A stretch of 64,000 bases of DNA from Escherichia coli (lineage in GTDB: Bacteria > Pseudomonadota > Gammaproteobacteria > Enterobacterales > Enterobacteriaceae), in the NCBI RefSeq assembly GCF_009931435.1, contig NZ_CP043414.1; one strand, given 5' to 3'. The notes beneath the pieces are model-generated. The model worked only from the letters and a program-made list of their open reading frames with translations, ran no database searches and was not told the origin of the DNA. This document shows positions 1-15,744 of this stretch, piece after piece. Each line of letters starts with the position of its first letter. Within the stretch, counting starts at the first letter, position 1. Made by a program: the position numbers and the translations under genes.

Positions 1-3000
1 GCTGCTCCCAAAACGAACCCGTGGCGCACTGGCAGTAGTGTTGAACGCCCAGAGGGGGTCTTTGAATACCTCCATTCCATGCGCCGTGTTTTTACATAAC
101 GTAATGGCAGCAGATGCACTCTCTCCACGTCGACCCGCGCGGCCTGCACGCTGCAAATAATTTGCCGGAGCTGGAGGAACGTTGTTCATTGCCACCAAAC
201 TCATACCACCAATGTCCACCCCCATCTCCATGGTCGTGGAGCAGTTCAGCACATTAACTTTGCCTGACTTAAATTGTTTTTCATTAAACTGGTTCTGCTC
301 AGGCGTTCTCTGCGCAGAGTGTTCCTCCAGACGATACCAGCTATCTTTCAGGGCCAGTCGGTCGCTGCGAGTAGACCATAATCCTTCCTCGCGGGCATGT
401 TGAATCAGCGCATTACTTTCCAGCCACTCCAGACGTTCTTCTCGGGCGATTTCTCCACCACCAGACAAACGCCAGTGACGTACAGGAAGCTCAGGCATTT
501 CAATCAACACTGCTTTTTCAGGTGCAATTTCTTTGCTACCCGGCAAATACGGAGAGTATCCCAGTAACGTGACGTCTAACGCACGTCGAGTATAGGGGCA
601 ACGCCACACTTGCTTTGGACTGTAAAATTCAGCTTGTTGTTTAATATCCAGCTGATAACCCGACTCAAACTGACGTAAGCAGGGTCGAATTGCATCCCAG
701 ACCTCAATCATTAAGTGGTTAACTAACGATTTCCAGTGAGCCTGCTCAGGTTGTATTGCCGGAAAGACTGCAATTAATAGCTTAATGACCCGGTTATAAT
801 GGCGATCGCGTATTTGTGGCCAAAGTTGATCACGTTTCTGCCCTTTGTTTTTTTTATCTGGACCCTGCAGCATTTTTACCGGGAAACGAGCCCCCATCCA
901 GCGAGGGTATTGCTCGTTTTCGTAAAAAACGGCACTGTTTTCACGTATAAAGAAATCAAGAGTAATCTTCAATAAATTACGCCATTCCGCTAATTGCTTA
1001 TCGGGATCGGGTAATAATGTCTTCCAGTCCTGCGGGCAGGTTGTAACTTTATCAATAAATGGATAGTGAATGGCTACCAGACCCAGACTTTCGAGGGTCC
1101 AGGCATTTTTAGGGCGGCGACCAAACTCACTGTATAAACAAAAATCTGCAAACTGTTGTTTAGTAAGATCAAGCCCAGACAATTCTTTAAAACTGCCTCT
1201 CATTCTATCGGCAAGGTCCACACTGCCAACCAGCTGTTCAGACAGTGTTTGCCATGACATGGTTTTCTTCTGCTGATTGCCAGAGTTAGCCTGGAGTATT
1301 TGCATCGCTTCAGCATGATCCGGGCTTAAGGAACTCACCATCGGCTCGATAATTTTAAGTGCCTGAATGTCCGCCGGGCTAAGCTCTTCATTAGCAACCA
1401 TCGCTTTTTTCAGCGCGTCAATAGAGTTTTTTAAAGGAAGGATAGAAAACTGGGCAATAAAACTCTCTAACAATGCGCAGTGTGCCGGGCTGAGCTTTGC
1501 TGATGGCTCATTAATATTGGCCAGCTCCTGGTAGCAAAGAGCTCGCAACGTCGCTTTATCGGCATCCTGCTGTAAGCGGGCAGAAATGCGGGCAGTGCCC
1601 TGACGTGAATCCGTAAAGGTGAGCAGACGTCGACCATTAAACGGTCCTAACTGCTCTTCTCTTGTCTGCGGTAATGGTGAAAACTCCAGCAGAGTAGGAA
1701 TAATTTCATTTAAAAAAAAGGGCGCGCCAAGTCGAAGCGGACGGAATAAAGGATTATTTTTTCGTTGGGTGTCACCACAGCAAACACAAGCAAAGGAATT
1801 ATTACGTCCCTCACCTCGAGATTCCGGTCTTAACAGGTTTATTTCATAGTGCTTTTGCGCTTCACTATCAATTTTCCCCGCCGTCGTTTCTTCCAGTGAA
1901 ATGATATATTTTTCACCATCGCTCGCAATCAGACGATCAAATTGAGAGTTATTGTCTAATTCGTCGTTGTCTTCATCTTCAGAATAAACATCTACATCAA
2001 GAGCAAACTCATCCACTTCGGCAGCGGCGGGTTGCGCTACCAACCAGTTCGTTCCATCACCGCGCATCTCCTCTTTGGCAGACAAATAAGCTGAACCACA
2101 CCCGGAGCAACGTAAAACTTCAAATACCGGCGCACCACAGTCACAATATTGGCGCTGCTCAAACCATACCTGACCAAATGGCCAGTCACTCTGATTTAAT
2201 TCATGTGCTTTATGTGAGCATTGTTTGTTTGAACATGCCCATAGACCCGCCAGTGTTCTGATAAATCCATGCATACGTAATGGCGTAAAAGCCAGTTCAC
2301 CTTCTCGCGATCTTGCCATTAGATCGAGGAGTTGCAGTAGCTCACGGTGATTAATATCTGGCCAGGTTCTTCTGGCAACATTGAGCAACTCACTCAAACG
2401 TACTGCCTGCCGTCCGGGATGAGTTAACGCCTGACGCAATTGCTGGGCCACACGGTAATGACAAAGCTGTTGGTAAAGATCCTGAGGGCTCAGAGATTTA
2501 AGAGAAGTTAAAGATGTGGGGTATTCATGACGAATCAGCGACTCCGATACCCGCGGTATTTGTCGATAACCGCGAACCACTTTGACATCACGTTCTGTAA
2601 CGCCCGCGAGATCAGCGACAAATTTAGCAAGCTCCTTATTACCTTCAGGAGAGTCTTCACCAATAGTGGCAGAGGTCGCGATAATCTGCACAGGTTTATC
2701 TGTGCCGGGTCCAACATTGAAAGCCTGCATAACACGACGTAAAAGCAGCGCTAACTCAGCAGCCTGAGAACCAATATAACTATGGGCTTCATCCAGGACG
2801 ATATACTTTAACATCCCCTGAGACTTTTCGATGATTGGGGCATCTTTACGACGAATCAGCATATATTCCAGCATGGTGGTATTCGTCACCATGATGGAAG
2901 GTGGTGCTTCGTAAATGGCTTCCCGACTCAAAGCTTGTTCAGGTACTTTCAACTGATCTTCCTGAATTTCGTATTTGGTATGCCGGGTTTCGCCATTATA

Positions 3001-3543
3001 TAGCGCGAAGCGTATTTTCCCCTTAAATCCGCGCGTCCATTCGCGAAGCCGCTCCTGTTGACTGTTAATTAATGCATTTAACGGATACAAGAAAATAGCT
3101 TGTGTCCCTGTTAGTGACTGGCGGGTCGATTTTTGCTGACGAATAAGATCTTCCAGAACCGGTACCATAAAGCATTCTGTTTTCCCGGATCCCGTACCGC
3201 TGCTCACTAACAAGGATTTTTTGTCTTCCAGAATTGTTCGCCACGCAGTGAGTTGATGACGAAATGGCACTGGCGCTTTGCTCAATGCATCAACCAGCGG
3301 GCTGGAGATCAGCTTGTCCCGCAAATCCTCCATTGTTTCATCCGCAGGCATCCAGCCGAATGTACTTTCGAATACCGGGTCTGCAAGCAGTGACCCCTCC
3401 TGACCGGGAGGCTGAAAATATTGTGATTCCAGATAATGAGTCAACGACTTGCTCCGCAATGCCAACTGACTTACCACCGACCTCACCGCACGCTGATGAA
3501 GCTGATTTAGAAGTGGCGCATAATGCAGTTGCTGAACGTCCAT
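1..3543 (-). CDS. Large superfamily-2 DEAH helicase, C-terminus runs off the window (at least 1181 codons visible); candidate Druantia DruE-like
   Basis: Minus-strand frame appears uninterrupted from ATG at 3541-3543 to position 1 (checked by hand at several points; not in ORF track because no stop in window). Walker A SSGTGSGKT near 3179-3205, DEAH box VLDEAH at 2782-2799, motif V MEMGVDIGG near 205-231, motif VI QRAGRAGRRGE near 121-153. Cys clusters (FACVCCGD, CSNKQCSH, CDCGAPVFEVLRCSGCG) lie between about 1770 and 2260. Confidence 0.75.
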   Translation of the reverse strand, partial: MDVQQLHYAPLLNQLHQRAVRSVVSQLALRSKSLTHYLESQYFQPPGQEGSLLADPVFESTFGWMPADETMEDLRDKLISSPLVDALSKAPVPFRHQLTAWRTILEDKKSLLVSSGTGSGKTECFMVPVLEDLIRQQKSTRQSLTGTQAIFLYPLNALINSQQERLREWTRGFKGKIRFALYNGETRHTKYEIQEDQLKVPEQALSREAIYEAPPSIMVTNTTMLEYMLIRRKDAPIIEKSQGMLKYIVLDEAHSYIGSQAAELALLLRRVMQAFNVGPGTDKPVQIIATSATIGEDSPEGNKELAKFVADLAGVTERDVKVVRGYRQIPRVSESLIRHEYPTSLTSLKSLSPQDLYQQLCHYRVAQQLRQALTHPGRQAVRLSELLNVARRTWPDINHRELLQLLDLMARSREGELAFTPLRMHGFIRTLAGLWACSNKQCSHKAHELNQSDWPFGQVWFEQRQYCDCGAPVFEVLRCSGCGSAYLSAKEEMRGDGTNWLVAQPAAAEVDEFALDVDVYSEDEDNDELDNNSQFDRLIASDGEKYIISLEETTAGKIDSEAQKHYEINLLRPESRGEGRNNSFACVCCGDTQRKNNPLFRPLRLGAPFFLNEIIPTLLEFSPLPQTREEQLGPFNGRRLLTFTDSRQGTARISARLQQDADKATLRALCYQELANINEPSAKLSPAHCALLESFIAQFSILPLKNSIDALKKAMVANEELSPADIQALKIIEPMVSSLSPDHAEAMQILQANSGNQQKKTMSWQTLSEQLVGSVDLADRMRGSFKELSGLDLTKQQFADFCLYSEFGRRPKNAWTLESLGLVAIHYPFIDKVTTCPQDWKTLLPDPDKQLAEWRNLLKITLDFFIRENSAVFYENEQYPRWMGARFPVKMLQGPDKKNKGQKRDQLWPQIRDRHYNRVIKLLIAVFPAIQPEQAHWKSLVNHLMIEVWDAIRPCLRQFESGYQLDIKQQAEFYSPKQVWRCPYTRRALDVTLLGYSPYLPGSKEIAPEKAVLIEMPELPVRHWRLSGGGEIAREERLEWLESNALIQHAREEGLWSTRSDRLALKDSWYRLEEHSAQRTPEQNQFNEKQFKSGKVNVLNCSTTMEMGVDIGGMSLVAMNNVPPAPANYLQRAGRAGRRGESASAAITLCKNTAHGMEVFKDPLWAFNTTASAPRVRFGSS

Positions 3544-6500
3544 CAATGACATACTCCTGCTTGTTCAAAATAATATTGATAGATTACCCCTAATTGCTGT
3601 GGGGCTTGCTGATAGTGAAATTCAAAAAGCGCAGACAGTTGATGTATCAGGTTATTATCTTTTTGGGTTAACAGCGCTGCGACTAACATCAAATTAAAAC
3701 GTTTTTCAAGCCGTGAGTGATATTTATCTTCAATCCAAAGCTTATTAAAAACAGATTTTAACTCTGGAGTAATAGCACTAGACCAAAGTTCTTTAGGGAA
3801 GATACTGATACGCCCAAAGCTGTCGGGGTTCCTTAATAGCATCTGTTTAGCTTCATTAAACTGCTCACGACTAACAGTTGGCAATACATCACAACCGGTT
3901 GGTAGGCTCTCACTATATGTAAGTAACATATTCGCAATGGGAGCCAGCCGACGATCGATATGTGCACGATGGTTCATAAAAGCAATAAAGGGTTGCAATA
4001 TATGTAATGCTAATGTTTTATCGTTAATCTGTTTTTCCAGATAAGTCCAACATTTTTGGAAAACATCTTTCCAGATTGAAACGGGAATCCATCCCCATGA
4101 AAAGGGTAATTCTTCCTGTATATCATAAATCGTATCGCTATCACCAGAAAGACATGATGATATTAACAATTGAACAACCACGCGGTAATTACTCGAAATA
4201 CCTCTGAACAAGTCCAGATCCAGCAAGGATAAGCCATTATTCATTTTGTACTTCTTAATATACTCTGTTAATAAACAGCAATAATTTTGCAATGGGTTGT
4301 TATCTATTTCAAAAATTAGCTCATTAAAATTTTTTTTGCGCTGTTCTGGGTCTGCTTCGCATAGAGCATTTAGTAATAAATCATTTGTCTGCAATACAGG
4401 TAGCATCCATTTAATTACTGGTGCAATGCGAGCTGTACCATCAAGTTTTCCCACAATTAACCATGGACTATCCTGAACATTCAGAGCTGAAAGATCATAA
4501 GCAAATTCATCTTTTTTTAGCAATGATTTGTGTAAGCCAGGATCCTTAAGAGAAATAGCATCAACAACCAGTTCGTCTATTCTATTTGCAGGAAAAACAA
4601 CAGAATTTTTTATATCAACCAGCAACCCTTGATCGTGTTCAATAAAACTACCATCGTAGCGTTTAATATTGAGTGTTGCTTTATCCTTTCCAAATCTGTC
4701 AGAGTAAAAATCAACACATAATGTACTATTGCTGTTCCATGCACATGCCAGCATAGCATTTAGCAAATTATAGTTCTCATAAAGTGAAATTTGTTGTAAT
4801 TTGTCATTGCGTCCTGATAAAAGAGGAAGGTCGGCATGTAAATAACGGAATTTTTCAGCTACTGGATTTTCATCCAATAACTCGATATTAAGATATCCTC
4901 TTCCAGCACATGATATGGTTAATAACTCAGCATCTATTCCATGCAAATGTGCTATAGATGCCACACCATCAAAATGAACAGAACCATCATTAGTTACAAA
5001 TCGGCCACCGCTAACCGGCTTAGGTAATAATAGTTTAAGATTAGAACCATCTTTCCAGGAGACCCGTAAATCAACGGTATTTTCCAGCATCTGCGATGAA
5101 TTATAATAAATAGCACACTCGTTTTGTGAATAATCGGACTTAAGTGTTACTTTTTCATTGTTTGAATATTTATCAATTCTAGTATCCGTTATACCAGAAA
5201 GCATAATAATGCCTTGCTGAGCACTCTCAGGTATAATATTAATATCGAAGTCTGCTGGTAAAACTACAACTTTACCGCTAAATAAAACCTCATCATTAAC
5301 TATTCGCCGGACTTCTATCTGTCCTTTTGGCATTTCTGATGCGACAGAATACCAGGCATTGTTACCTGAACGAATGGAACGCCAAAAAAGTTCTTTCTCC
5401 GGTACAATGCCATATTGCAGATCCTTTTTCCAACCGATCTTCGGCCAGGCTCGATGGACAGGATAATCCGATTTAACCAGTTCAACTTCTGTCGATTTAA
5501 TATAATATTCAATCGCAGAATCATAAAGTTGCTGGGTGCGAATTGTACAAACAGCACCATCATGTAAAACAACGCTAAATACTCCACTTATTTTAGTTAA
5601 GCTGCGTTCACTGTTTTTCAGCAACCTTGGGATATCAAACTCACCTTCTCCACTAATATCTAAATGGCTATTTTTCGGTAGCGAAATAAACAGAGCATTT
5701 AGCCTGGAACTCACAGACCCCATACCGACAAGTTTTAGCTGCGATTCACTCTCATTCATCGCTTCAAAAACCCAGGGGAGTTCTTCAGTAAGTTCATAAC
5801 CGCCTTTTGGAATTGTGTGGCCTAACAGAATTGGACCTTCATGAAGCGACAACGAGATTTCGGCCATTGCATCTGCACCAGAGAGCTTTTGCATCGCAAT
5901 AGGTAATAACTCGACCCGCCAATCTTGCTGCTCATAACGGCTTAGCATTGCCAACCTTGCCCCGCCATTTCTCCATTTTCCTGAAATGATGAGTCGGGTC
6001 TGCTCCGGCTGAATATGGCATTCAAACAAAGAGGTTAACTGTTCTGTACGCATTGTGGCCGGGAATCGGAACCGGGCATCACAATACCAACTGTCATCAA
6101 CATCGACCCAGATTCTTTCAACCTGAAGACTACTTGCACTGCGTATTTCAGAAGATTGAGAAAGTAATCGCCTTACAATCTCTGCAGCATTCGCTTCGGG
6201 GAGAACGAGTGGAAGTTGAAGATGCCAGTCTGGAGAGAGCTTACGTAATGCAGAAACGGGATCACTGCTTTGAGGTGGATGCTCACTAAGTAATCGGCAG
6301 AGAGTCTCGCAGAATTCACCGGCTATTTCATAGACCAGTTCGTTTTGCATTGTGACAGGAATCGTATCGCCTAATTCTTGTGCAATTTTAGCGGCAGGAT
6401 ATTGAGATGCTTGCCCACGAAGCGCCTGATATATCCTTCTGAAATAGGTAATCAAATAACCGCTCTCATTTTCAATCATGCGGATAGGTAAACCACCTTC

Positions 6501-6902
6501 ACAAGCCAGTGTATGCAGATAACCCGAAGCTTGCCCCAGGTTTCTTATCTTTCTTTTCCAGTAGCGAATGCCATCATTAACCAGCTTCTGTCGATGAACA
6601 TACGGAACTTTCCAGTCAATAGAATCTAAAATTGTGTCCCATTTAGGGTGTCCGACCGTATGAGTCCGGCGGATAAACTCTGCGGCATATATGCTAAATA
6701 GAACATCGCTATAGGAAATGAATATCGTTCTTGGATAACTACGAGGGGCATATGTACGCAGTAGTTCTGCCAAACTTTCGTACTCTGTATCAGTACAACG
6801 GTAAGCATATAACGCCCGTCCATCAGCTCCGGATAATGAACGGCGACTAAAAAACATGTTAAGCCATTGCAAAAGTGGGTTAACTGGAGTTTTCACAAGC
6901 AA
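3543..6902 (-). CDS. Hypothetical 1119-aa protein, no recognisable motifs; upstream partner of the helicase (candidate DruH-like)
   Basis: Single long ORF in track; AT-rich; its TGA stop overlaps the helicase ATG (ATGA at 3541-3545), implying translational coupling. Confidence 0.6.
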   Translation of the reverse strand: MLVKTPVNPLLQWLNMFFSRRSLSGADGRALYAYRCTDTEYESLAELLRTYAPRSYPRTIFISYSDVLFSIYAAEFIRRTHTVGHPKWDTILDSIDWKVPYVHRQKLVNDGIRYWKRKIRNLGQASGYLHTLACEGGLPIRMIENESGYLITYFRRIYQALRGQASQYPAAKIAQELGDTIPVTMQNELVYEIAGEFCETLCRLLSEHPPQSSDPVSALRKLSPDWHLQLPLVLPEANAAEIVRRLLSQSSEIRSASSLQVERIWVDVDDSWYCDARFRFPATMRTEQLTSLFECHIQPEQTRLIISGKWRNGGARLAMLSRYEQQDWRVELLPIAMQKLSGADAMAEISLSLHEGPILLGHTIPKGGYELTEELPWVFEAMNESESQLKLVGMGSVSSRLNALFISLPKNSHLDISGEGEFDIPRLLKNSERSLTKISGVFSVVLHDGAVCTIRTQQLYDSAIEYYIKSTEVELVKSDYPVHRAWPKIGWKKDLQYGIVPEKELFWRSIRSGNNAWYSVASEMPKGQIEVRRIVNDEVLFSGKVVVLPADFDINIIPESAQQGIIMLSGITDTRIDKYSNNEKVTLKSDYSQNECAIYYNSSQMLENTVDLRVSWKDGSNLKLLLPKPVSGGRFVTNDGSVHFDGVASIAHLHGIDAELLTISCAGRGYLNIELLDENPVAEKFRYLHADLPLLSGRNDKLQQISLYENYNLLNAMLACAWNSNSTLCVDFYSDRFGKDKATLNIKRYDGSFIEHDQGLLVDIKNSVVFPANRIDELVVDAISLKDPGLHKSLLKKDEFAYDLSALNVQDSPWLIVGKLDGTARIAPVIKWMLPVLQTNDLLLNALCEADPEQRKKNFNELIFEIDNNPLQNYCCLLTEYIKKYKMNNGLSLLDLDLFRGISSNYRVVVQLLISSCLSGDSDTIYDIQEELPFSWGWIPVSIWKDVFQKCWTYLEKQINDKTLALHILQPFIAFMNHRAHIDRRLAPIANMLLTYSESLPTGCDVLPTVSREQFNEAKQMLLRNPDSFGRISIFPKELWSSAITPELKSVFNKLWIEDKYHSRLEKRFNLMLVAALLTQKDNNLIHQLSALFEFHYQQAPQQLGVIYQYYFEQAGVCH

Positions 6903-7113
6903 CCTGCCTTCCTTTGATACAATTCGTAACAGGTTACTATCATCATAAAAAAGCTCAACCCGATGAACTCGCTAAAAATGAGACAAATCATTTATATCTC
7001 GAAAAAACTTGTTACAATCATGAGCGCTACACCGAACTTAACCATATAAATTATGTGCGTTTTGTTTATTTTTTAAACAATTACAACTATCCATTATTTA
7101 CACAGGTATCAAA

Positions 7114-8766
7114 ATGTTAGCGCAGCTTTTTGAGCAGTTGTTTCAATCGATAGACTCTACACTGATCACCAATATTTTCATCTGGGCTGTTATATTCGTA
7201 TTTTTATCAGCGTGGTGGTGTGACAAAAAAAATATACATAGTAAGTTTAGAGAATATGCTCCAACCTTAATGGGGGCATTAGGTATTCTGGGTACTTTCA
7301 TTGGTATTATTATTGGGTTACTCAATTTTAATACTGAAAGTATTGATACCAGCATCCCCGTATTATTAGGCGGCCTAAAAACAGCATTCATTACAAGCAT
7401 TGTAGGTATGTTTTTTGCCATTTTATTTAATGGAATGGATGCTTTCTTTTTTGCCAATAAACGAAGTGCGTTAGCAGAAAATAACCCTGAATCTGTTACA
7501 CCTGAACATATCTATCATGAATTAAAAGAGCAGAACCAGACTCTGACTAAATTAGTCTTGGGTATTAACGGTGATAGTGAAGGTTCTCTTATTGCTCAAA
7601 TAAAATTACTACGTACTGAGATTAGCGATTCCTCGCAGGCACAATTAGCTAATCACACTCATTTCAGTAATAAGCTTTGGGAACAACTTGAACAATTTGC
7701 AGATCTAATGGCAAAAGGTGCTACAGAACAAATTATTGATGCTTTACGACAAGTCATTATTGATTTTAATGAAAATTTAACTGAACAGTTTGGTGAAAAC
7801 TTTAAAGCACTTGATGCCTCTGTAAAAAAACTTGTTGAGTGGCAGGAAAATTATAAAACGCAAGTTGAGCTGATGTCAGAACAATATCAACAAAGTGTCG
7901 AGTCTCTGGTTGAAACAAAAACTGCGGTTGCCGGGATTTGGGAAGAATGTAAAGAAATTCCTCTGGCTATGTCTGAACTGCGTGAAGTGCTTCAGGTGAA
8001 CCAACATCAAATCAGCGAACTCTCCCGCCATTTAGAAACCTTTGTCGCTATCCGCGATAAAGCTACAACCGTATTACCTGAAATACAGAACAAAATGGCT
8101 GAAGTGGGTGAACTGCTGAAATCCGGAGCTGCAAATGTTAGTGCATCTCTTGAGCAAACCAGCCAGCAAATACTTCTTAATGCAGATTCAATGCGCGTGG
8201 CCCTGGATGAAGGTACCGAAGGATTCAGACAATCGGTTACCCAAACACAACAAGCATTTGCCTCGATGGCACATGATGTCAGCAATTCCTCCGAAACTCT
8301 AACCAGCACGTTAGGTGAAACAATTACTGAAATGAAACAAAGTGGTGAAGAATTCCTGAAGTCACTAGAGTCGCACTCGAAAGAATTGCATAGAAATATG
8401 GAACAAAATACGACTAATGTAATTGATATGTTCAGTAAGACTGGTGAAAAGATTAACCATCAACTATCCAGTAATGCCGATAATATGTTTGATTCAATCC
8501 AGACATCATTTGATAAGGCAAGTGCAGGGCTGACTTCTCAAGTCAGAGAATCAATTGAAAAATTTGCTCTATCCATCAACGAGCAGTTACATGCTTTTGA
8601 GCAAGCAACTGAACGTGAGATGAACCGTGAAATGCAATCATTAGGTAATGCTCTGCTTTCAATCAGCAAAGGTTTTGTCGGTAACTATGAAAAACTTATT
8701 AAAGATTACCAAATAATTATGGGACAGTTACAAGCATTAATTTCTGCTAATAAACATCGAGGGTAA
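7114..8766 (+). CDS. zorA: MotA/ExbB/TolQ-like membrane protein with long coiled-coil tail; ZorA-like (Zorya)
   Basis: Three N-terminal hydrophobic helices (LITNIFIWAVIFVFLSAWW, LMGALGILGTFIGIIIGLL, IPVLLGGLKTAFITSIVGMFFAILF) followed by about 440 aa of Q/E/L-rich heptad-like sequence; first gene of a three-gene operon. Confidence 0.65.
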   Translation: MLAQLFEQLFQSIDSTLITNIFIWAVIFVFLSAWWCDKKNIHSKFREYAPTLMGALGILGTFIGIIIGLLNFNTESIDTSIPVLLGGLKTAFITSIVGMFFAILFNGMDAFFFANKRSALAENNPESVTPEHIYHELKEQNQTLTKLVLGINGDSEGSLIAQIKLLRTEISDSSQAQLANHTHFSNKLWEQLEQFADLMAKGATEQIIDALRQVIIDFNENLTEQFGENFKALDASVKKLVEWQENYKTQVELMSEQYQQSVESLVETKTAVAGIWEECKEIPLAMSELREVLQVNQHQISELSRHLETFVAIRDKATTVLPEIQNKMAEVGELLKSGAANVSASLEQTSQQILLNADSMRVALDEGTEGFRQSVTQTQQAFASMAHDVSNSSETLTSTLGETITEMKQSGEEFLKSLESHSKELHRNMEQNTTNVIDMFSKTGEKINHQLSSNADNMFDSIQTSFDKASAGLTSQVRESIEKFALSINEQLHAFEQATEREMNREMQSLGNALLSISKGFVGNYEKLIKDYQIIMGQLQALISANKHRG

Positions 8767-8772
8767 TCGATC

Positions 8773-9480
8773 ATGGATAAGATTATAGGGAAACAATTAC
8801 CTAAAAAAGATCAAGATAATGAACACTGGGTATCCATGTCAGACCTAATGGCAGGGCTGATGATGGTTTTTATGTTCATATCTATTGCTTATATGCACTA
8901 CGTACGTATTGAAAAAGAAAAAATTAAAGAAGTTGCCGTAGCCTACGAGAATGCTCAGTTACAGCTTTATAATGCTCTGGATATTGAGTTTGCAAAGGAT
9001 TTACAAGACTGGGATGCAGAGATCGATAAACAGACTCTGGAGGTTCGATTTAAATCACCGGATGTTTTATTTGGCTTAGGAAGCACAGAGCTAAAACCAA
9101 AGTTTAAACTCATTCTTGACGACTTCTTTCCTCGCTACCTAAAAGTTCTAGATAATTATCAGGACCATATTACTGAAGTCCGCATTGAAGGTCACACAAG
9201 TACTGACTGGACAGGAACAACGAATCCTGATATTGCTTATTTTAATAATATGGCACTATCACAAGGTCGTACACGTGCAGTATTACAATACGTTTATGAC
9301 ATAAAAAATATCGCGACACACCAACAATGGGTTAAAAGTAAATTTGCCGCAGTAGGTTATTCATCTGCACATCCCATTCTTGATAAAACCGGCAAGGAGG
9401 ATCCTAATCGCTCTCGTCGTGTCACCTTCAAAGTTGTAACAAATGCCGAATTGCAGATTAGAAAGATTATTCAGGAGTAA
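8773..9480 (+). CDS. zorB: MotB/OmpA-like peptidoglycan-anchoring protein; ZorB-like
   Basis: N-terminal TM segment (LMAGLMMVFMFISIAYM) and C-terminal OmpA/MotB-like region (NMALSQGRTRAVLQYV, NRSRRVTF); starts 6 nt after zorA stop. Confidence 0.65.
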   Translation: MDKIIGKQLPKKDQDNEHWVSMSDLMAGLMMVFMFISIAYMHYVRIEKEKIKEVAVAYENAQLQLYNALDIEFAKDLQDWDAEIDKQTLEVRFKSPDVLFGLGSTELKPKFKLILDDFFPRYLKVLDNYQDHITEVRIEGHTSTDWTGTTNPDIAYFNNMALSQGRTRAVLQYVYDIKNIATHQQWVKSKFAAVGYSSAHPILDKTGKEDPNRSRRVTFKVVTNAELQIRKIIQE

Positions 9481-9483
9481 GAG

Positions 9484-10587
9484 ATGAAATTATCTATCGA
9501 CATTTCAGAACTTATTCAATTAGGGAAGAAAATGTTACCAGAAGGAGTCGATTTTTTTCTGGATGAATCCCCTATTGACTTTGATCCTATAGATATTGAG
9601 TTATCCACGGGTAAAGAAGTTAGTATCGAAGATCTTGACCCTGGTAGCGGGCTTATCTCTTATCATGGCCGCCAGGTTCTTTTATATATTCGGGACCATT
9701 CAGGGCGTTATGATGCGGCTATCGTAGATGGCGAAAAAGGAAAACGTTTTCATATTGCCTGGTGCAGAACTCTTGATGAAATGCGCCATAAAAATCGATT
9801 TGAAAGGTATCATGCAACTAACCGCATAGATGGTTTATTCGAAATTGATGATGGTTCAGGTCGGAGCCAGGATGTTGATTTACGGGTATGTATGAATTGC
9901 CTCGAACGACTTAATTATAAAGGAAGTATTGATAAACAACGAAAAAGAGAGATTTTTAAATCATTCTCATTAAATGAGTTTTTTTCAGATTATAGTACCT
10001 GTTTTCGTCATATGCCTAAGGGTATCTATGACAAAACAAATAGTGGGTATGTCGAAAACTGGAAAGATATATCTAAATCAATACGAGAAAAGGCAAATTA
10101 TGTTTGTAATGATTGTGGCGTGAATTTATCAACCGCCAAAAACTTGTGCCATGTCCATCATAAAAATGGCATCAAATATGATAATCACCATGAAAACCTT
10201 CTTGTTCTGTGCAAGGATTGCCATCGAAAACAGCCCCTCCACGAAGGTATATTCGTTACCCAAGCTGAGATGGCTATCATTCAACGTTTACGTTCCCAAC
10301 AAGGGTTATTAAAAGCAGAATCCTGGAATGAAATATATGACCTGACTGATCCATCAGTGCATGGTGATATTAATATGATGCAACATAAAGGCTTTCAACC
10401 TCCTGTTCCTGGGTTAGATCTTCAAAACTCAGAACATGAAATTATTGCAACCGTAGAAGCTGCATGGCCAGGCCTTAAAATTGCAGTTAACCTTACTCCC
10501 GCCGAAGTCGAAGGATGGAGAATATATACCGTGGGTGAGCTGGTTAAAGAAATACAAACAGGAGCCTTTACGTCAGCAACGTTGTAA
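9484..10587 (+). CDS. zorE: HNH endonuclease-domain protein; ZorE-like (Zorya type II effector)
   Basis: C-terminal HNH signature CNDCGVNLSTAKNLCHVHHKNG...NHHENLLVLCKDCH; starts 3 nt after zorB stop. Confidence 0.6.
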   Translation: MKLSIDISELIQLGKKMLPEGVDFFLDESPIDFDPIDIELSTGKEVSIEDLDPGSGLISYHGRQVLLYIRDHSGRYDAAIVDGEKGKRFHIAWCRTLDEMRHKNRFERYHATNRIDGLFEIDDGSGRSQDVDLRVCMNCLERLNYKGSIDKQRKREIFKSFSLNEFFSDYSTCFRHMPKGIYDKTNSGYVENWKDISKSIREKANYVCNDCGVNLSTAKNLCHVHHKNGIKYDNHHENLLVLCKDCHRKQPLHEGIFVTQAEMAIIQRLRSQQGLLKAESWNEIYDLTDPSVHGDINMMQHKGFQPPVPGLDLQNSEHEIIATVEAAWPGLKIAVNLTPAEVEGWRIYTVGELVKEIQTGAFTSATL

Positions 10588-10597
10588 ATTCCGAAAC

Positions 10598-10623
10598 TCC
10601 GTGAAAGTTAAGACTTTCACGGA
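10598..10623 (+). other. 11-bp stem hairpin just after zorE stop (terminator-like, no U-tract)
   Basis: tccgtgaaagt-taag-actttcacgga. Confidence 0.35.
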
Positions 10624-10796
10624 AGATAAATAAAATTCTCCTGATTTGTGACTCAAATTATAAAAGTCGTTTATGGCATAACTTGTCTGTTTTTTTGGTG
10701 TAATAGGTATAAAGGCATATGCTATGGTTAGCCTTATATTTAAAACTTTCCTCATACGGGTGAAGGTTAAAGCTTGGTAGATAGGTTACAGTCACA

Positions 10797-11406
10797 ATGA
10801 ATAAAGCAATAACGGTGCTTGCTATAATGATGGCTTCATTTTCCGTAAATGCGTATGTATTACCGGAAACGCCTGTGCCATTTAAAAGTGGTACCGGAGC
10901 AATTGATAACAACACTGTCTACATTGGTTTAGGTAGCGCAGGTACGGCATGGTACAAGCTGGAGAAACAGACCAAAGATAAAAAAATGGACAGCGTTAGC
11001 TGCATTTCCTGGTGGACCGAGAGATCAAGCAACTTCTGCATTTATTGATGGCAATCTGTATGTGTTTGACGGCATTGGCAAAAACAGTGAGGGCTTGACT
11101 CAGGTATTTAATGACGTTCACAAATACAACCTCAAAACCAATAGCTGGGTTAAATTGATGTCGCACGCGCCGATGGGCATGGCGGGTCATGTGACATTTG
11201 TACACAACGGCAAGGCTTATGTTACTGGCGGTGTTAACCAGAATATCTTCAATGGCTATTTTGAAGATCTTAACGAAGCTGGAAAAGATTCAGCGTACCG
11301 GTCACCGGAGAACTGGATGACGGTACTGCGAAGCAGTCATTTCAGTCGGGGGATGATTGTAGACAAATTTGTTGACGCTATTTTGCGGTTTTGGCGTGAA
11401 GGGTGA
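10797..11406 (+). pseudogene. nanM: N-acetylneuraminate epimerase (nanM/yjhT) N-terminal fragment, frameshifted and truncated
   Basis: ORFs 10797-11048 and 11062-11406 together carry the NanM signal peptide and first Kelch-like repeats (MNKAITVLAIMMASFSVNAYVLPETPVPFKSGTGAIDNNTVYIGLGSAGTAWYKL; FDGIGKNSEGLTQVFNDVHKYNLKTNSWVKLMSHAPMGMAGHVTFVHNGKAYVTGGVNQNIFNGYFEDLNEAGKD) but are split by a frameshift and end far short of the full-length protein. Confidence 0.6.
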
Positions 11407-11413
11407 GCGTTCA

Positions 11414-12064
11414 TTAATTTGATTTATTTGCATCCATCAACGCTTTTAACTGCTCCGGCGAAAACGGTGGTTTGCGTCGGTGCAACATCGCATGGCAATT
11501 AGGGCACACAGGAAGCAAATCATTAACTGGATCCAGCTGGTAATTCTCTTTAATGGCTGAAAGCGGCACCAGGTGATGCACATGGATAAAGCCTTCAGCG
11601 ATATCACCATAGATCTTCACCAGATCAACGCCGCATACGTTGCACTGGCATCCATGATGTTCGACCGCTTTATCTCGGGCCTTTTTATCGCGTTCATAGC
11701 GGTTTACTGTCACCTTTATCGCCGCACCTTCAACGTATGTCTCCTGCGACGGCAACTCATCCGGGAACAGAACGTCGGCTATGGGAGCCGCAGCGGCTTT
11801 ATCCTGATGAATATGAAATCCCTGCTCTATGAGTAGTTTGACGCATTTAGATTTTATTCCGCCGGTGAAATCCGCAGGGGTAAATTGCGTCCCCGTCATC
11901 AATGTCGCTGCGATGCCAGCAATCGCCTTCGAGGGGTAACGTCGGCCATGATATTCAATCTCATACAACCGCGCAGGCTGGAACTGATGAGTTTCTCCCG
12001 CATCCCATAAATGGATAGCTTCGATGATATACCGCCGCGGAAGATGATCAGGGAGTTTATTCAT
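11414..12064 (-). CDS. HNH endonuclease with about 140-aa N-terminal domain of unknown function
   Basis: C-terminal HHGCQCNVCG...HVHHLVPLS...NDLLPVCPNCHAMLH (zinc-finger HNH); N-terminal region has no motif I recognise. Confidence 0.7.
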   Translation of the reverse strand: MNKLPDHLPRRYIIEAIHLWDAGETHQFQPARLYEIEYHGRRYPSKAIAGIAATLMTGTQFTPADFTGGIKSKCVKLLIEQGFHIHQDKAAAAPIADVLFPDELPSQETYVEGAAIKVTVNRYERDKKARDKAVEHHGCQCNVCGVDLVKIYGDIAEGFIHVHHLVPLSAIKENYQLDPVNDLLPVCPNCHAMLHRRKPPFSPEQLKALMDANKSN

Positions 12065-12143: not shown

Positions 12144-13073
12144 TTGAACAGCAGAAAATTTGCGAGCATGATCGCAATTATTTCACTGCCAGGGATATCA
12201 ATGGCTTCCAGTAAATCGCTACAGCAGGCAATTGCCAATATAAAAATCTGGCACAAGGGTGAACAGCGCGCGCCGCATAAGCCATTGTTATTGCTATACG
12301 TATTAGCGGGATACCTGAATGGACATCCGCGCCTTTTCGATTATGGCTCGGAAATCTACGAACCTCTGCACAGTTTACTGGAACGTTTTGGGCCACAGCG
12401 TTCACAGTACCGACCTGATATGCCGTTCTGGCGATTACAAGGCGACGGATTCTGGCAATTACACAATGCCGAACTTTGCTCAACAGCAGGGAGTAGCCGA
12501 CAACCGCCAGTGAAGGAACTGACCGAACACCGCGTTGCAGGCGGTTTCGATGAACAGCACTATGCCCTGGTAATCGGCAATAAAAAACTCATCAATACCC
12601 TGGCGCAACAGATACTCGAAGCGCACTTCACCGAGAGCATTCAGGAAGAAATTGCTGACGAGCTGGGTTTTGATCTCCAGCAAATCCGTAAACAGCGCGA
12701 CCCGTTATTTCGCAAACTTGTATTGCGCGCATATAACTACCAGTGCGCGATATGTGGCTTTAATATGCGCCACGATGACACCACCGTCGCACTGGAAGCA
12801 GCGCATATAAAATGGAAACAGCACGGCGGTCCTTGTGAAATTCCTAATGGCCTGGCGCTTTGTGCAATACACCATAAAGCCTTTGATAAAGGATCGATTG
12901 GCCTGGATGAAAATATGCGGGTACTGGTCTCGGATGCGGTAAACGGCGGAGGGATCGTTGAGAAACTATTCTGGGATTTTGACGGGAAAACTATTGCGTT
13001 ACCACAGGTGCGTAAAAATTACCCTTTTGAGGGGTTTGTGGAGTGGCATCGAAAAGAGGTTTTTAGGGGGTGA
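12144..13073 (+). CDS. HNH endonuclease with about 190-aa N-terminal domain of unknown function (start may be a downstream Met, e.g. 12201)
   Basis: HNH signature CAICGF...AAHIKWKQHGGP...NGLALCAIHHKAFDKG; divergent from the 216-aa HNH gene across a 79-bp spacer. Confidence 0.7.
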   Translation: MNSRKFASMIAIISLPGISMASSKSLQQAIANIKIWHKGEQRAPHKPLLLLYVLAGYLNGHPRLFDYGSEIYEPLHSLLERFGPQRSQYRPDMPFWRLQGDGFWQLHNAELCSTAGSSRQPPVKELTEHRVAGGFDEQHYALVIGNKKLINTLAQQILEAHFTESIQEEIADELGFDLQQIRKQRDPLFRKLVLRAYNYQCAICGFNMRHDDTTVALEAAHIKWKQHGGPCEIPNGLALCAIHHKAFDKGSIGLDENMRVLVSDAVNGGGIVEKLFWDFDGKTIALPQVRKNYPFEGFVEWHRKEVFRG

Positions 13074-13672: not shown

Positions 13673-13695
13673 CATGGACTATATAATAAATTGCT

Positions 13696-15744
13696 CTAAT
13701 CATTTCCCTTACGAATATATGGGCCAAAAGCCCAAGAATCATAATAAGGGTGATGGACTAATTTTTCATTAAATCGAACACTATAAGTTAATTTTTTTAT
13801 ATTTTTACGTACAGCATTAATACTGGGCAAAGAGGAAAGATAATCTATAAACTTATCGATAGTGATTTTCCCTTCGCAACACTCAAACCCATCAATGATA
13901 TTTTTCGCCATTTTTCCATTTTCATTTGTTTGATATATCACTCCAGGTATTCGTTGAAAAAAACTAGATAATGCATATTTGTCCGCTACATATGTATCAT
14001 CCACATGATATTTCCCACCGAGCATAGTTGTAGTAACAATAAGCTTATACACACCTTTGGGTTGCCATGTTGATGGTAGTTCGAATTCTTTAATGATCAC
14101 ATCAAGATGATTAAGATAATGTTCAGAAATTCGATTTATTTGTTGAAAATAAGAACGCATAAATTTATTATTATGATCATGTATTAATGAGCTATCTCCA
14201 ACGATGTTACACACTTGCTGATAGTACTTACCATAATATATTGGTTGACCATTTGATTTTAGTTCTGTAAAAATCAAACAATCATCCAGGAGAATCACGC
14301 AATCGCACTGATAATTAGCATGAGCATCAATTGGAGAAGCTTTAATCCCCGCATCACGAACTTGTTTTATAAATTGTTGCTCATGAAATCGCCCTTTACT
14401 TGCTTGAGAAATTTTTTTGGAACCAAATAATGACATTAGAGAGCGAGTCACTGAGCTATTTGCTATTAATGCAGGCATTAAGCATAAACCGTCCATACAG
14501 GGAATAAATGGGCAATCATTAAGATCATGTGATTTTGAATTGAAGGTAAAATAATCTATCAGTTTTTTTGCTGCATCTGCTGCAATCCCCTTACGTTGAA
14601 AGAATGATAACCAACTCTCACGGCTTTTTATGACCAGCCAGCGATCCAACTGTAGGGGTATAGGTTTTGTCGATGAAAATCTTTTGCTCATTTCTTCTTT
14701 AGATAACTCGACTAAACATTGATAAGCGTGCACCCAATTAAATAATGATATATTCCCATATTCTTCATGAAGGTCATCAGGAGACATATTTTCCAACTCG
14801 CTTAAATGAAATGAGCTAAAAACGCCATCAGAATTTAAGTAAGATGGCATATGATCCTTTACCCAACTATTTAGATGAAAATGTTTGTTACTAAATTCAT
14901 GAACTTCGCTATATAGATGTGACGCTCTCATCATTAGTCTATTTCTTGCAATCTCATAATCTCGGTATAAACAAAAACTATCAACCTCAAGAGAGTAAAT
15001 GTTATTATCCAATTTTGTAAATACTGCACTACTTAGTCTGAAAAAGTCTCTTACTCTGCTTAATGAGTCAAAAACATTCCACTCATTAAGGTACCCTCCC
15101 ATTGAAAGCAAGGTTTGTTTATTCACACAAGAAGTTAGTTTCAATGGCCCATGAGTCCGTAAATAAGAAAATATTCTTCCGGTGTAATTGGCTACCTCAT
15201 CAAATGCCCTATCGATAACTCGAAAATATTCGATATCAGGTTCAGCATGAATATTAATATTTTCAGAAACGATAAATAATGGAAAAATCCTCTTCATTTT
15301 TTTAGGATCATTGACCACAACCAAGGATGATAATGATGATAAAAACATCTCACAAAACATGATGAGATTAAGTATTAATGCATGTGATTTTTTTGTATTT
15401 TTACGCCAAATACCAGCACATTTTGCAGCCCCAAAGAAAGAATTATTTATATCATGCATAATTTTACATTGACTCTCGAACTCAGAGATTAGTTCAATGT
15501 TATCAGGAAATGAGTTTACTAGCTCATTAATACATTTTTTGAATGTATTGTTATACTCAACTTCAGTCTGAACTGAAAATCTATTATAATAGATGGAAGA
15601 TATTCTCAGCACATCCAAGGCGATATCTATACTAATATCATCTCTTTTTATGTACTCACAAAAAAAAGAACAAAACTGTTTCGGGTCGTTAGCAAGATTA
15701 CTAATTCTAGTGGTATCATAAACTTTTTCCATTTTTCCATACAT
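13696..15744 (-). CDS. Hypothetical 682-aa protein, very AT-rich, no confident domain assignment
   Basis: Single long ORF flanked by more than 600 bp of AT-rich non-coding DNA on each side; possible PD-(D/E)xK-like motif CDCVILLDDCLIFTELK in the C-terminal third (weak). Confidence 0.6.
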   Translation of the reverse strand: MYGKMEKVYDTTRISNLANDPKQFCSFFCEYIKRDDISIDIALDVLRISSIYYNRFSVQTEVEYNNTFKKCINELVNSFPDNIELISEFESQCKIMHDINNSFFGAAKCAGIWRKNTKKSHALILNLIMFCEMFLSSLSSLVVVNDPKKMKRIFPLFIVSENINIHAEPDIEYFRVIDRAFDEVANYTGRIFSYLRTHGPLKLTSCVNKQTLLSMGGYLNEWNVFDSLSRVRDFFRLSSAVFTKLDNNIYSLEVDSFCLYRDYEIARNRLMMRASHLYSEVHEFSNKHFHLNSWVKDHMPSYLNSDGVFSSFHLSELENMSPDDLHEEYGNISLFNWVHAYQCLVELSKEEMSKRFSSTKPIPLQLDRWLVIKSRESWLSFFQRKGIAADAAKKLIDYFTFNSKSHDLNDCPFIPCMDGLCLMPALIANSSVTRSLMSLFGSKKISQASKGRFHEQQFIKQVRDAGIKASPIDAHANYQCDCVILLDDCLIFTELKSNGQPIYYGKYYQQVCNIVGDSSLIHDHNNKFMRSYFQQINRISEHYLNHLDVIIKEFELPSTWQPKGVYKLIVTTTMLGGKYHVDDTYVADKYALSSFFQRIPGVIYQTNENGKMAKNIIDGFECCEGKITIDKFIDYLSSLPSINAVRKNIKKLTYSVRFNEKLVHHPYYDSWAFGPYIRKGND

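What the first reader, a model, noticed from the sequence alone, without database searches (positions are those of the whole stretch)
7114..10587. Zorya type II-like operon (zorA-zorB-zorE)
Three tightly packed genes: a MotA/ExbB-like channel protein with a long coiled-coil tail (550 aa), a MotB/OmpA-like peptidoglycan-binding protein (235 aa) and an HNH nuclease (367 aa), with 6-nt and 3-nt gaps. This composition is what is described for Zorya type II anti-phage systems. It is not novel in itself, but together with the neighbouring genes it marks the region as a defence island.
Basis: partly seen in the sequence, partly recalled or inferred. Interest (0 to 1): 0.65.

Follow-up and report, generated by a model that had tools for sequence, protein, structure and literature searches.

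The report
Known type II Zorya phage defence
These three genes are an intact copy of the already named and experimentally studied type II Zorya anti-phage system of Escherichia coli, inside a published defence island, so the finding is correct but ordinary.

Summary
Three + strand ORFs lie at 7114-8766 (550 aa), 8773-9480 (235 aa) and 9484-10587 (367 aa), with 6-nt and 3-nt gaps. All three pass NCBIfam's curated equivalog cut-offs for type II Zorya: ZorA2 1137.7 bits against 700, ZorB2 443 against 400, ZorE 694 against 600. They also match the PADLOC ZorA2, ZorB2 and ZorE2 models end to end.

The exact protein sequences are already in NCBI under those names. The operon is present in 590 of 5426 complete E. 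coli genomes. It is 98.9% identical and collinear with O157:H7 Sakai ECs_5258-5256.

Every residue shown by published mutagenesis to be needed is present at the same numbering: ZorB D24, and ZorE H90, Y189, H226, K231, H247 and H253 among others.

The neighbourhood is the published SpLE6 / O-island 172 layout at tRNA-Leu (leuX):
- Druantia III (druH-druE) is divergent on the left.
- Two HNH restriction-type nucleases lie on the right.
- An unannotated 682-aa protein with a PD-(D/E)xK fold also lies on the right.

No motility or Tol/Exb affiliation was found. Verdict: confirmed, already known, low interest. The only loose thread is the 682-aa nuclease-like gene.

The parts
6903..7113 (.). 211-nt divergent intergenic region between druH (leftward) and zorA (rightward); presumed promoter region for both
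   Evidence: ORF map. Promoter-like sites on the + strand at 6914-6943 (10/12 matches) and 6991-7018 (9/12, with TG), but the region holds no more such sites than shuffles do, so the assignment is inferred. The junction is conserved in 506 of 5426 complete E. coli genomes.
7114..8766 (+). zorA2: 550-aa MotA/ExbB-family membrane subunit with a ~435-aa helical cytoplasmic tail
   Evidence: NCBIfam NF041792 ZorA2 equivalog 1137.7 bits (cut-off 700), aligned 1-550 of 550. PADLOC PDLC00638, E = 1.3e-301. Pfam MotA_ExbB 51-110. PDB 8VVI chain F (type II ZorA), E = 3.6e-37. Tail periodicity. 544 of 550 residues identical to Sakai ECs_5258.
8773..9480 (+). zorB2: 235-aa MotB-like subunit with an N-terminal TM helix carrying D24 and a C-terminal OmpA-like peptidoglycan-binding domain
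   Evidence: NCBIfam NF041787 443 bits (cut-off 400). PADLOC PDLC00641, E = 1.5e-104. Pfam OmpA 99-213. D24 aligns with D21 of 8VVI chain A. 234 of 235 residues identical to Sakai ECs_5257.
9484..10587 (+). zorE: 367-aa HNH nuclease effector, including the ~100-aa C-terminal extension typical of Druantia-associated ZorE
   Evidence: NCBIfam NF041791 694 bits (cut-off 600). PADLOC PDLC00645 aligned 1-363 of the 375-position model; the shorter models (282-283 positions) stop at residue ~258-275. H90, E99, Y109, Y189, H226, K231, N234, H235, N238, L239, H247 and H253 are all present. 362 of 367 residues identical to Sakai ECs_5256.
10598..10623 (+). 11-bp stem / 4-nt loop hairpin 11 nt after the zorE stop; possible transcript end or stabiliser (no T-run follows)
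   Evidence: RNA fold -16 kcal/mol, z = -4.07, 0 of 200 shuffles fold as well. The terminator scan did not call it because it lacks a T tract.
3543..6902 (-). druH (Druantia type III), 1119 aa, divergent from zorA
   Evidence: PADLOC DruH3 PDLC00041 2551 bits, full length. NCBIfam STY4851/ECs_5259 family 988 bits. 7 aa differences from Sakai ECs_5259.
1..3543 (-). druE (Druantia type III helicase-nuclease): the N-terminal 1181 codons only, cut by the window edge
   Evidence: PADLOC DruE3 PDLC00037 1360 bits, covering profile positions 4-1141 of 2055. The full gene is 6315 nt in the closest genome.
10777..11460 (+). Relic copy of the core nanC-nanM (yjhT) start, fused to a nanS-end sequence; a non-functional fragment carried at the right edge of the Zorya block
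   Evidence: blastn to Sakai nanC/yjhT (94%) and to the nanS end / SpLE6 boundary (84%). NCBIfam NanM partial hit covering model positions 97-177 of 384. Annotated as a frameshifted, incomplete pseudogene in the closest genome.
11414..12064 (-). 216-aa HNH endonuclease, possibly a type IV-like restriction enzyme
   Evidence: Pfam HNH 141-197, E = 1.2e-4. PHROGs HNH families. Weak PADLOC mREase_IV hits. Absent from Sakai SpLE6.
12201..13073 (+). Phosphorothioated-DNA-binding restriction endonuclease (sulfur-binding domain plus HNH)
   Evidence: NCBIfam NF045808 435.9 bits (cut-off 180). PADLOC HNH PDLC04132. 96% nt identity to Sakai ECs_5254. Start taken from the RefSeq annotation of the closest genome; the mechanical ORF starts at 12144.
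13696..15744 (-). 682-aa low-GC ORF of unknown family (likely start at M5, giving 678 aa); predicted helical N-terminal region plus a PD-(D/E)xK nuclease domain; candidate defence gene
16422..16506 (-). tRNA-Leu(CAA), leuX: the integration hotspot that bounds the island on the right
   Evidence: ARAGORN. The core genes ahr and idnK/D/O/T/R follow, as in the closest genome. No second copy of the tRNA 3' end is present in the window.

Best explanation
This is an intact, chromosomal type II Zorya anti-phage system of an Escherichia coli-like genome.

The mechanism below is taken from work on near-identical orthologues and is inferred for this copy.
1. Five ZorA2 subunits surround two ZorB2 N-terminal helices in the inner membrane, forming a 5:2 ion-driven, stator-like motor.
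2. The ZorB OmpA-like domain engages peptidoglycan when a phage perturbs the envelope.
3. That engagement opens an ion path through ZorB D24.
4. The resulting rotation or conformational change of the long pentameric ZorA tail recruits and concentrates ZorE at the entry site.
5. ZorE's HNH domain then nicks DNA, and at high local concentration cuts it. The targets include phage DNA and some host DNA. This blocks mainly T7-like podoviruses.

The operon sits back to back with Druantia III in the SpLE6 / OI-172-type island at leuX. The two systems have been reported to cooperate there. ZorE may also serve Druantia III independently of ZorAB against some phages.
For: Shown here:
- ORFs, lengths and gaps.
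- All three proteins exceed the NCBIfam equivalog cut-offs and give full-length PADLOC Zor*2 matches.
- Pfam MotA_ExbB and OmpA domains.
- Sequence matches to the solved type II ZorAB complex 8VVI, with ZorB D24 aligned to its D21.
- A helical, amphipathic ZorA tail.
- All 12 ZorE residues probed by mutagenesis are present at identical numbering.
- The exact sequences are already named ZorA2, ZorB2 and ZorE in NCBI.
- 98.9% nt identity and collinearity with Sakai ECs_5258-5256, with only 6, 1 and 5 aa differences, none at a residue reported as essential.
- The operon is in 590 of 5426 complete E. coli genomes (529 covering at least 80% of the query). The druH-zorA junction is in 506.

From the literature:
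- 5:2 architecture; requirement for ZorB D24, the PG-binding domain and the ZorA tail (deletion of aa 106-550); ZorE nickase activity and ZorAB-dependent recruitment, all for the ATCC 8739 system (PMC11890865).
- Native deletion of zorABE or zorE in EDL933 raises sensitivity to Autographiviridae 100- to 1000-fold (bioRxiv 10.1101/2025.09.22.677730).
- Druantia III-Zorya II synergy and the classes of ZorE mutants (PMC13192584).
Against: Nothing in the sequence argues against it. The caveats are these.
- Expression and activity of this particular copy are untested.
- Promoter-like sites in the 211-nt upstream region are no more frequent than in shuffled sequence.
- Pfam's generic HNH models barely detect ZorE (E = 0.081), so the nuclease assignment rests on the ZorE-specific models and the conserved motif.
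- No solved ZorE structure was found by sequence.
- The sensing step (peptidoglycan perturbation) and the rotation of ZorA are models even in the literature.
- Whether defence is abortive or direct differs between studies and host strains.
Confidence: 0.94

Rival explanations
1. The functional unit is larger than the three genes. Zorya II here works chiefly as one module of a composite Druantia III - Zorya II (- ARMADA II) island. ZorE is shared as a nuclease by both pathways, so the three-gene description is incomplete rather than wrong.
For: druH-druE lies divergently 211 nt from zorA. The junction is conserved in 506 genomes against 529 with a near-complete operon. ZorE carries the C-terminal extension reported to mark Druantia-associated ZorE. 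The closest genome and Sakai both carry ARMADA II-like genes just beyond druE. Published work reports synergy and ZorAB-independent use of ZorE by Druantia III against Bas37.
Against: Zorya II alone protects when cloned without Druantia (ATCC 8739 system). In EDL933 the Druantia-Zorya synergy was only weak and limited to a few phages. ARMADA II, if present in this genome, lies outside the window and cannot be checked. druE itself is cut by the window edge.
Confidence: 0.5
2. The genes encode a flagellar stator-like or Tol/Exb-like energising module with a housekeeping role in motility or envelope transport, and the HNH gene is an unrelated neighbour.
For: Weak family-level resemblance only: Pfam MotA_ExbB 28 bits; ZorB hits to MotB, MotS and MotD models at 27-40 bits.
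Against: Those hits lie far below the curated cut-offs of 259-300 bits, while the Zorya II equivalogs are passed. ZorA gives no hit to any MotA, TolQ or ExbB equivalog at E <= 1e-3. The context in the window and in relatives consists of defence genes at a tRNA hotspot, with no flagellar, Tol or Ton genes. The operon is accessory, present in about 11% of E. coli genomes. The 3-nt zorB-zorE gap and the conserved gene trio argue for one operon.
Confidence: 0.01
3. The operon is an intact-looking but silent or decaying passenger of a degraded mobile element. This copy of the island has lost its integrases and carries pseudogene relics, so the operon may contribute nothing to defence in this host.
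For: No integrase lies between the island and leuX, unlike Sakai SpLE5 and SpLE6. A nanM'/nanS' relic and other fragments flank the operon. No second att copy is present in the window.
Against: All three ORFs are full length against their models. Differences from tested orthologues amount to only 12 amino acids, none at an essential site. The same island, also long fixed in O157:H7, is active from its native locus in EDL933.
Confidence: 0.05

Closest known systems
Type II Zorya of E. coli O157:H7 (Sakai ECs_5258-5256; EDL933 locus on O-island 172 / SpLE6)
   Same: Same gene order, lengths (550, 235 and 367 aa) and gaps. The operon is 98.9% nt identical and collinear, with 6, 1 and 5 aa differences. 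It has the same divergent druH-druE neighbour, the same nanM' relic and the same PT-DNA restriction endonuclease to the right. It lies on the same side of leuX.
   Different: Here the island abuts leuX directly. SpLE5 and both integrase genes of Sakai are absent. A 216-aa HNH gene and a 682-aa nuclease-like gene are present instead. The amino-acid differences are ZorA L149S, E220Q, E245G, V251I, L253Q and I535V; ZorB D131E; and ZorE D195E, S199E, Q314P, S364P and T366K (written window-to-Sakai). All lie outside residues reported as essential.
Type II Zorya of E. coli ATCC 8739 and ECOR19 (the cloned, mechanistically studied systems)
   Same: Protein lengths are identical, and so is the numbering of the mutated residues: ZorB D24; ZorA tail deletion 106-550; ZorB deletion 45-235; ZorE H90, E99, Y189, H226, K231, N234/H235, N238/L239 and H247/H253.
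   Different: Direct percent identity could not be computed, because I did not locate the ATCC 8739 locus and ECOR19 is not held as a locus here.
Sulfuricurvum kujiense type II ZorAB (PDB 8VVI)
   Same: Same family. ZorA matches at E = 3.6e-37 over residues 42-383, and ZorB at E = 1e-52 over 13-234. The channel Asp is conserved (D24 here, D21 there).
   Different: Distant orthologue. Its ZorA is 378 aa against 550 here, so the tail is much shorter.
Type I Zorya (ZorABCD) and type III Zorya (ZorABFG)
   Same: Shared ZorAB stator-like core. There are weak cross-hits to ZorA1, ZorA3, ZorB1 and ZorB3 models.
   Different: The effector is ZorE (HNH), not ZorC/ZorD or ZorF/ZorG, and no such genes lie nearby. 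The ZorA1 and ZorB1 equivalog and subfamily cut-offs are not reached; for example ZorB1 scores 32.8 bits against a cut-off of 400.
Flagellar stator MotAB and the Tol/Exb 5:2 motors
   Same: Same superfamily architecture: a MotA/ExbB channel subunit, plus a single-TM partner with a conserved Asp and an OmpA-like peptidoglycan-binding domain.
   Different: ZorA has a ~435-aa cytoplasmic helical tail that those proteins lack. An HNH nuclease is co-encoded. The locus is accessory and lies in a defence island. No equivalog cut-off is met.

Membership tests
Zorya type II (ZorA2-ZorB2-ZorE) | ZorA: MotA/ExbB-family membrane domain followed by a long helical cytoplasmic tail | tested here: met
   NF041792 equivalog 1137.7 bits against 700, aligned 1-550 of 550. 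Pfam MotA_ExbB 51-110. Three hydrophobic segments. Tail with 4 Pro in 435 aa and 3.5-3.8-residue periodicity.
Zorya type II (ZorA2-ZorB2-ZorE) | ZorB: N-terminal TM helix with the ion-coupling Asp, plus a C-terminal OmpA-like PG-binding domain | tested here: met
   NF041787 equivalog 443 bits against 400. TM segment 20-44 with D24. D24 aligns to D21 of 8VVI chain A. Pfam OmpA 99-213.
Zorya type II (ZorA2-ZorB2-ZorE) | ZorE: HNH nuclease effector with intact catalytic and Zn-site residues | tested here: met
   NF041791 equivalog 694 bits against 600. PADLOC ZorE2, E = 9.2e-177. H226, K231, N234, H235, H247, H253, H90 and Y189 are present. The generic Pfam HNH match is only weak.
Zorya type II (ZorA2-ZorB2-ZorE) | Contiguous same-strand order zorA-zorB-zorE, without the type I (ZorC/D) or type III (ZorF/G) effectors | tested here: met
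   ORF map with 6-nt and 3-nt gaps. The neighbours are DruH and a nanM relic. No ZorC, ZorD, ZorF or ZorG hit among the flanking ORFs.
Zorya type II (ZorA2-ZorB2-ZorE) | Confers protection against phage, dependent on all three genes, ion flux and nuclease activity | not testable with these tools
   Shown for orthologues of identical length and residue numbering (ATCC 8739, ECOR19) and for the EDL933 locus (PMC11890865, PMC13192584, bioRxiv 10.1101/2025.09.22.677730). Sakai, of the same serotype as EDL933, is 98.6-99.6% identical at protein level. Not tested for this copy.
Zorya type II (ZorA2-ZorB2-ZorE) | ZorA5:ZorB2 complex | not tested
   Only sequence homology to the solved 5:2 complex 8VVI. 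No multimer modelling was done.
Flagellar stator MotAB / TolQR / ExbBD | Match to the curated MotA/MotB, TolQ/TolR or ExbB/ExbD models, and a motility or transport gene context | tested here: not met
   ZorA has no such hit at E <= 1e-3. ZorB scores 27-40 bits against MotB, MotS and MotD cut-offs of 259-300. The context is a defence island at leuX.
SpLE6 / O-island 172-type defence island (ARMADA II - Druantia III - Zorya II) | Divergent druHE and zorABE, with armABCD beyond druE, located between nanS and leuX | tested here: inconclusive
   The druH, druE (N-terminal part) and zorABE arrangement and the leuX side are met. The arm genes and the nanS side would lie beyond the window's left edge. 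They are present in the closest genome, which is 99.0% identical over the window's first 25 kb.

The most novel reading that the evidence does not exclude
Zorya II itself is standard. The most novel reading left open concerns its neighbour. The unannotated 682-aa protein between the PT-DNA restriction endonuclease and leuX (13696-15744, - strand) may be the founding E. coli member of an undescribed single-gene defence nuclease family. The family has a helical N-terminal sensor-like region and a FokI/McrC-like PD-(D/E)xK domain, and comprises about 227 clusters at 50% identity. In this variant of the island it replaces the integrase module and adds a further DNA-targeting layer beside ZorE and DruE.
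Probability: 0.3. Interest if true: 0.35.

Novelty: already known. Interest (0 to 1): 0.1.

Why it matters
For Zorya biology it adds nothing. The system, its structure-function map, its island and its partnership with Druantia III are all published, and NCBI's pipeline already names these exact proteins.

Its practical value is as annotation. It marks the first ~16.4 kb of the window as a leuX-anchored defence island. It predicts resistance of the host to T7-like podoviruses and, through Druantia III, to a broader range of phages, which matters for phage-therapy or phage-typing work on such strains.

The variable leuX-proximal part of the island differs from the O157:H7 reference. It holds a 216-aa HNH gene and a 682-aa PD-(D/E)xK-fold gene in place of integrases. 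That is the only place where something untested remains.

Tried and rejected
1. Locating the experimentally used ATCC 8739 Zorya II locus for a direct identity figure. I fetched NC_010468.1 4,040,000-4,140,000, which covers leuX and the yjiS/hsd 'immigration control' region. Neither holds zor genes, and the fim-leuX interval is deleted or rearranged around IS3 copies. I gave up and used O157:H7 Sakai plus residue numbering instead.
2. Reading Doron et al. 2018 (PMC6387622). It is not held.
3. PDB sequence search for ZorE found no solved relative.
4. Looking for a second att copy (the leuX 3' end) to delimit the island within the window found none. The repeat scan of 10.5-16.6 kb gave only short AT-rich chance-like pairs, plus one perfect 21-nt palindrome at 13630-13673.
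5. The promoter and terminator consensus scan was not informative, because counts equalled those of shuffled sequence.
6. 'SPIDER' element membership, mentioned in PMC13192584, could not be tested. The full-text search found no occurrence of the term in the held copy of the cited preprint, so no definition was available.
7. Flagellar or Tol/Exb affiliation was considered and rejected.


Full report
**Observation.** The window has three + strand ORFs at 7114-8766 (550 aa, ATG), 8773-9480 (235 aa, ATG) and 9484-10587 (367 aa, ATG). The gaps are 6 nt and 3 nt. Shine-Dalgarno-like motifs sit before zorB (GAGGG) and zorE (AGGAG). The region is AT-rich, with GC of 0.38-0.40 against about 0.50-0.55 in the core genes further right.

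**Identity of the three proteins.**
- Against NCBIfam, each protein exceeds the curated equivalog cut-off for type II Zorya. ZorA2 (NF041792) scores 1137.7 bits against 700 and aligns 1-550 of 550. ZorB2 (NF041787) scores 443 against 400. ZorE (NF041791) scores 694 against 600.
- PADLOC gives full-length matches to ZorA2 (E = 1.3e-301), ZorB2 (1.5e-104) and ZorE2 (9.2e-177). Only weak cross-hits go to type I and type III models.
- Pfam sees MotA_ExbB at ZorA 51-110 and apolipoprotein-like helical repeats in the tail. It sees OmpA at ZorB 99-213. For ZorE it gives only a marginal generic HNH match (HNH_3, E = 0.081).
- The HNH assignment for ZorE therefore rests on the ZorE-specific models and on the visible motif CHVHHKNGIKYDNHHENLLVLCKDCH.
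- ZorA and ZorB match the solved type II ZorAB complex of Sulfuricurvum kujiense (8VVI), at E = 3.6e-37 and 1e-52. ZorE has no solved relative by sequence.

**Anatomy.**
- ZorA has three hydrophobic segments (12-36, 48-74, 81-114). ZorB has one (20-44) containing D24. ZorE has none.
- ZorB D24 aligns with D21 of 8VVI chain A. Mariano et al. name that residue as the ion-coupling aspartate.
- The ZorA tail (116-550) has 4 prolines in 435 residues. Its hydrophobic periodicity is 3.5-3.8 residues in every 56-aa window, and the whole tail gives z = 3.0 at period 3.67 against shuffles.
- ZorE includes the ~100-aa C-terminal extension. The 375-position PADLOC model aligns to residues 1-363, while the 282-283-position models stop at residue ~258-275. 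Wu et al. report that this extension marks Druantia-associated ZorE.
- A stable hairpin lies 11 nt after the zorE stop (10598-10623; -16 kcal/mol; z = -4.07). It lacks a T-run, so calling it a terminator is only an inference.

**Comparison with tested systems.**
- The exact amino-acid sequences of all three proteins are already in public databases, named 'MULTISPECIES: type II Zorya anti-phage system protein ZorA2/ZorB2/ZorE [Escherichia]'.
- The operon occurs in 590 of 5426 complete E. coli genomes, and 529 of them cover at least 80% of the query.
- Against O157:H7 Sakai (ECs_5258-5256) it is collinear and 98.9% identical at nucleotide level. The amino-acid differences number 6, 1 and 5.
- Sakai is the same serotype (O157:H7) as EDL933. 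There, native deletion of zorABE or zorE raised sensitivity to Autographiviridae 100- to 1000-fold, and zorE complementation restored resistance (bioRxiv 10.1101/2025.09.22.677730).
- Lengths and residue numbers match the ATCC 8739 constructs of Mariano et al.: ZorB D24N, ZorA deletion 106-550 and ZorB deletion 45-235.
- All twelve ZorE positions mutated by Wu et al. in the ECOR19 system are present at the same numbers: H90, E99, Y109, Y189, H226, K231, N234, H235, N238, L239, H247 and H253.
- None of the differences from Sakai falls on these residues.

**Surroundings.**
- To the left, divergent across a 211-nt spacer, is druH (3543-6902, - strand; PADLOC DruH3, 2551 bits).
- It is followed by the N-terminal 1181 codons of druE, which runs off the window edge (PADLOC DruE3, 1360 bits).
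- The druH-zorA junction is conserved in 506 complete genomes. Nearly every near-complete copy of this operon therefore sits next to Druantia III, in agreement with the published association.
- To the right lie five features in order:
  - a nanC/nanM'-nanS' relic (10777-11460);
  - a 216-aa HNH endonuclease (11414-12064, - strand);
  - a phosphorothioated-DNA-binding restriction endonuclease (12201-13073; NF045808, 435.9 bits against 180);
  - a 682-aa ORF of unknown family (13696-15744, - strand);
  - tRNA-Leu(CAA), leuX (16422-16506, - strand).
- After leuX come the core genes ahr, idnK/D/O/T/R, yjgR, lptFG, pepA, valS and so on.
- The closest complete genome is 99.0% identical over the window's first 25 kb. 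In it, four genes lie beyond druE: a DEAD/DEAH helicase, a 1640-aa methyltransferase, a 2113-aa helicase and a UvrD-like helicase. Then come nanS, nanM and nanC.
- This is the ARMADA II - Druantia III - Zorya II layout that Li et al. describe for O-island 172. Sakai's annotation calls it 'phage-like element SpLE6'.
- Compared with Sakai, the window lacks SpLE5 and both integrase genes. It carries the 216-aa HNH and the 682-aa gene instead.
- The full 25-kb arrangement is shared at 80% coverage or more by only 16 complete genomes.
- The core part of the window is at most 98.9% identical to any complete E. coli genome in the collection, and 95-99% identical to nearly all of them. The source is therefore E. 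coli or a very close relative.

- ZorA has no hit to flagellar MotA, TolQ or ExbB equivalogs at E <= 1e-3.
- ZorB's MotB, MotS and MotD hits score 27-40 bits against cut-offs of 259-300.
- No motility or transport genes flank the locus, here or in relatives.
- The operon is accessory, present in about 11% of genomes.
- The stator/Tol/Exb alternative is rejected.

**Mechanism.** What is shown here is sequence membership and the conservation of every residue known to matter. What follows is carried over from near-identical orthologues (PMC11890865; PMC13192584):
- a ZorA5B2 inner-membrane motor that needs ZorB D24, the ZorB PG-binding domain and the ZorA tail;
- ZorAB-dependent recruitment of ZorE on infection;
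- ZorE as a Mg2+/Mn2+-dependent nickase acting on supercoiled and relaxed DNA, with some double-strand cutting at high concentration.

The trigger (envelope or peptidoglycan perturbation) and tail rotation are models even in those papers. Whether the outcome is abortive or direct differs between host backgrounds.

**Side finding.**
- The 682-aa ORF (likely start at M5, giving 678 aa, as in most database copies) has no match in PADLOC, NCBIfam, Pfam, PHROGs or PDB sequences.
- It is always annotated 'hypothetical protein'. With its leuX-side spacer it occurs in 331 of 5426 complete E. coli genomes.
- An exhaustive search found 227 representative clusters at E <= 1e-3, mostly 640-690 aa long.
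- In a 53-sequence alignment the invariant residues include D481, E494 and K496, a D...ExK motif. Eight members give weak NERD hits, and a few give Card1, Mrr or Hjc hits.
- The AlphaFold2 model is confident (pLDDT 90.3, pTM 0.89).
- Three distant homologues were inspected. One sits next to a type I R-M system and a Cap4 nuclease. One sits next to a toxin-antitoxin-like pair. One lies in an integrase / KAP-NTPase / Mrr island.
- This is suggestive of a defence nuclease but is not a test.

**Verdict.** Interest is low. The only unexplored element is outside the finding's coordinates.

Noticed in passing
[not shown]
   Followed up: partly
window 1-6902 (- strand): Druantia type III: druH is complete (1119 aa), and druE is represented by its N-terminal 1181 codons, cut by the window's left edge. 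druE's start codon overlaps druH's stop codon by 1 nt. In the closest genome, ARMADA II-like genes (helicase, 1640-aa methyltransferase, 2113-aa helicase, UvrD-like helicase) follow beyond the window.
   Followed up: partly
window 10777-11460: A relic copy of the core nanC-end / nanM (yjhT) 5' part, fused to a nanS-end sequence, sits immediately right of zorE. It is also present in O157:H7 Sakai (ECs_5255). In relatives the intact nanC-nanM-nanS lie at the island's far left end, so the ARMADA-Druantia-Zorya block is bracketed by directly repeated nan sequences. This suggests that the block was acquired or moved by recombination in nan, not only by tRNA-site integration.
   Followed up: partly
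window 11414-13073: Divergent pair of HNH nucleases. One is a 216-aa HNH protein (Pfam HNH 141-197) that is absent from Sakai. The other is a phosphorothioated-DNA-binding restriction endonuclease (NF045808, 436 bits) that is 96% identical at nucleotide level to Sakai ECs_5254. The island therefore also holds at least one modification-dependent (type IV-like) restriction enzyme.
   Followed up: partly
window 15745-16506: The island abuts tRNA-Leu(CAA) leuX with about 680 nt of non-coding sequence and no integrase. O157:H7 Sakai has SpLE5 (integrase, IS629 and others) and an integrase fragment of SpLE6 at this position. No second copy of the tRNA 3' end exists in the window. Window 16370-16446 (the leuX 3' end plus the ~50 nt on its island side) matches the Sakai SpLE5/SpLE6 boundary at 81% identity.
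   Followed up: partly
window 13630-13673: Perfect 21-nt inverted repeat (GTTATTCACTGATTATATTAT / ATAATATAATCAGTGAATAAC, 2 nt between the arms), 23 nt downstream of the stop of the 682-aa ORF. It could be a transcript-end hairpin or a protein-binding palindrome.
   Followed up: no
window 35665-37410 (- strand): 581-aa ORF in a second low-GC patch (GC 0.37 at 36-38 kb), between argF and tabA. It is annotated 'hypothetical protein' in one E. coli genome and as a frameshifted 'DNA-binding protein' in ATCC 8739. It was not examined further.
   Followed up: no
window 8773-9480: NCBIfam's ZorB2 model (210 positions) aligns only from residue 26 and so leaves out D24. The 235-aa reading frame, with its start at 8773, is the one that retains the functionally essential Asp. 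It agrees with the RefSeq annotation and with the published constructs.
   Followed up: yes
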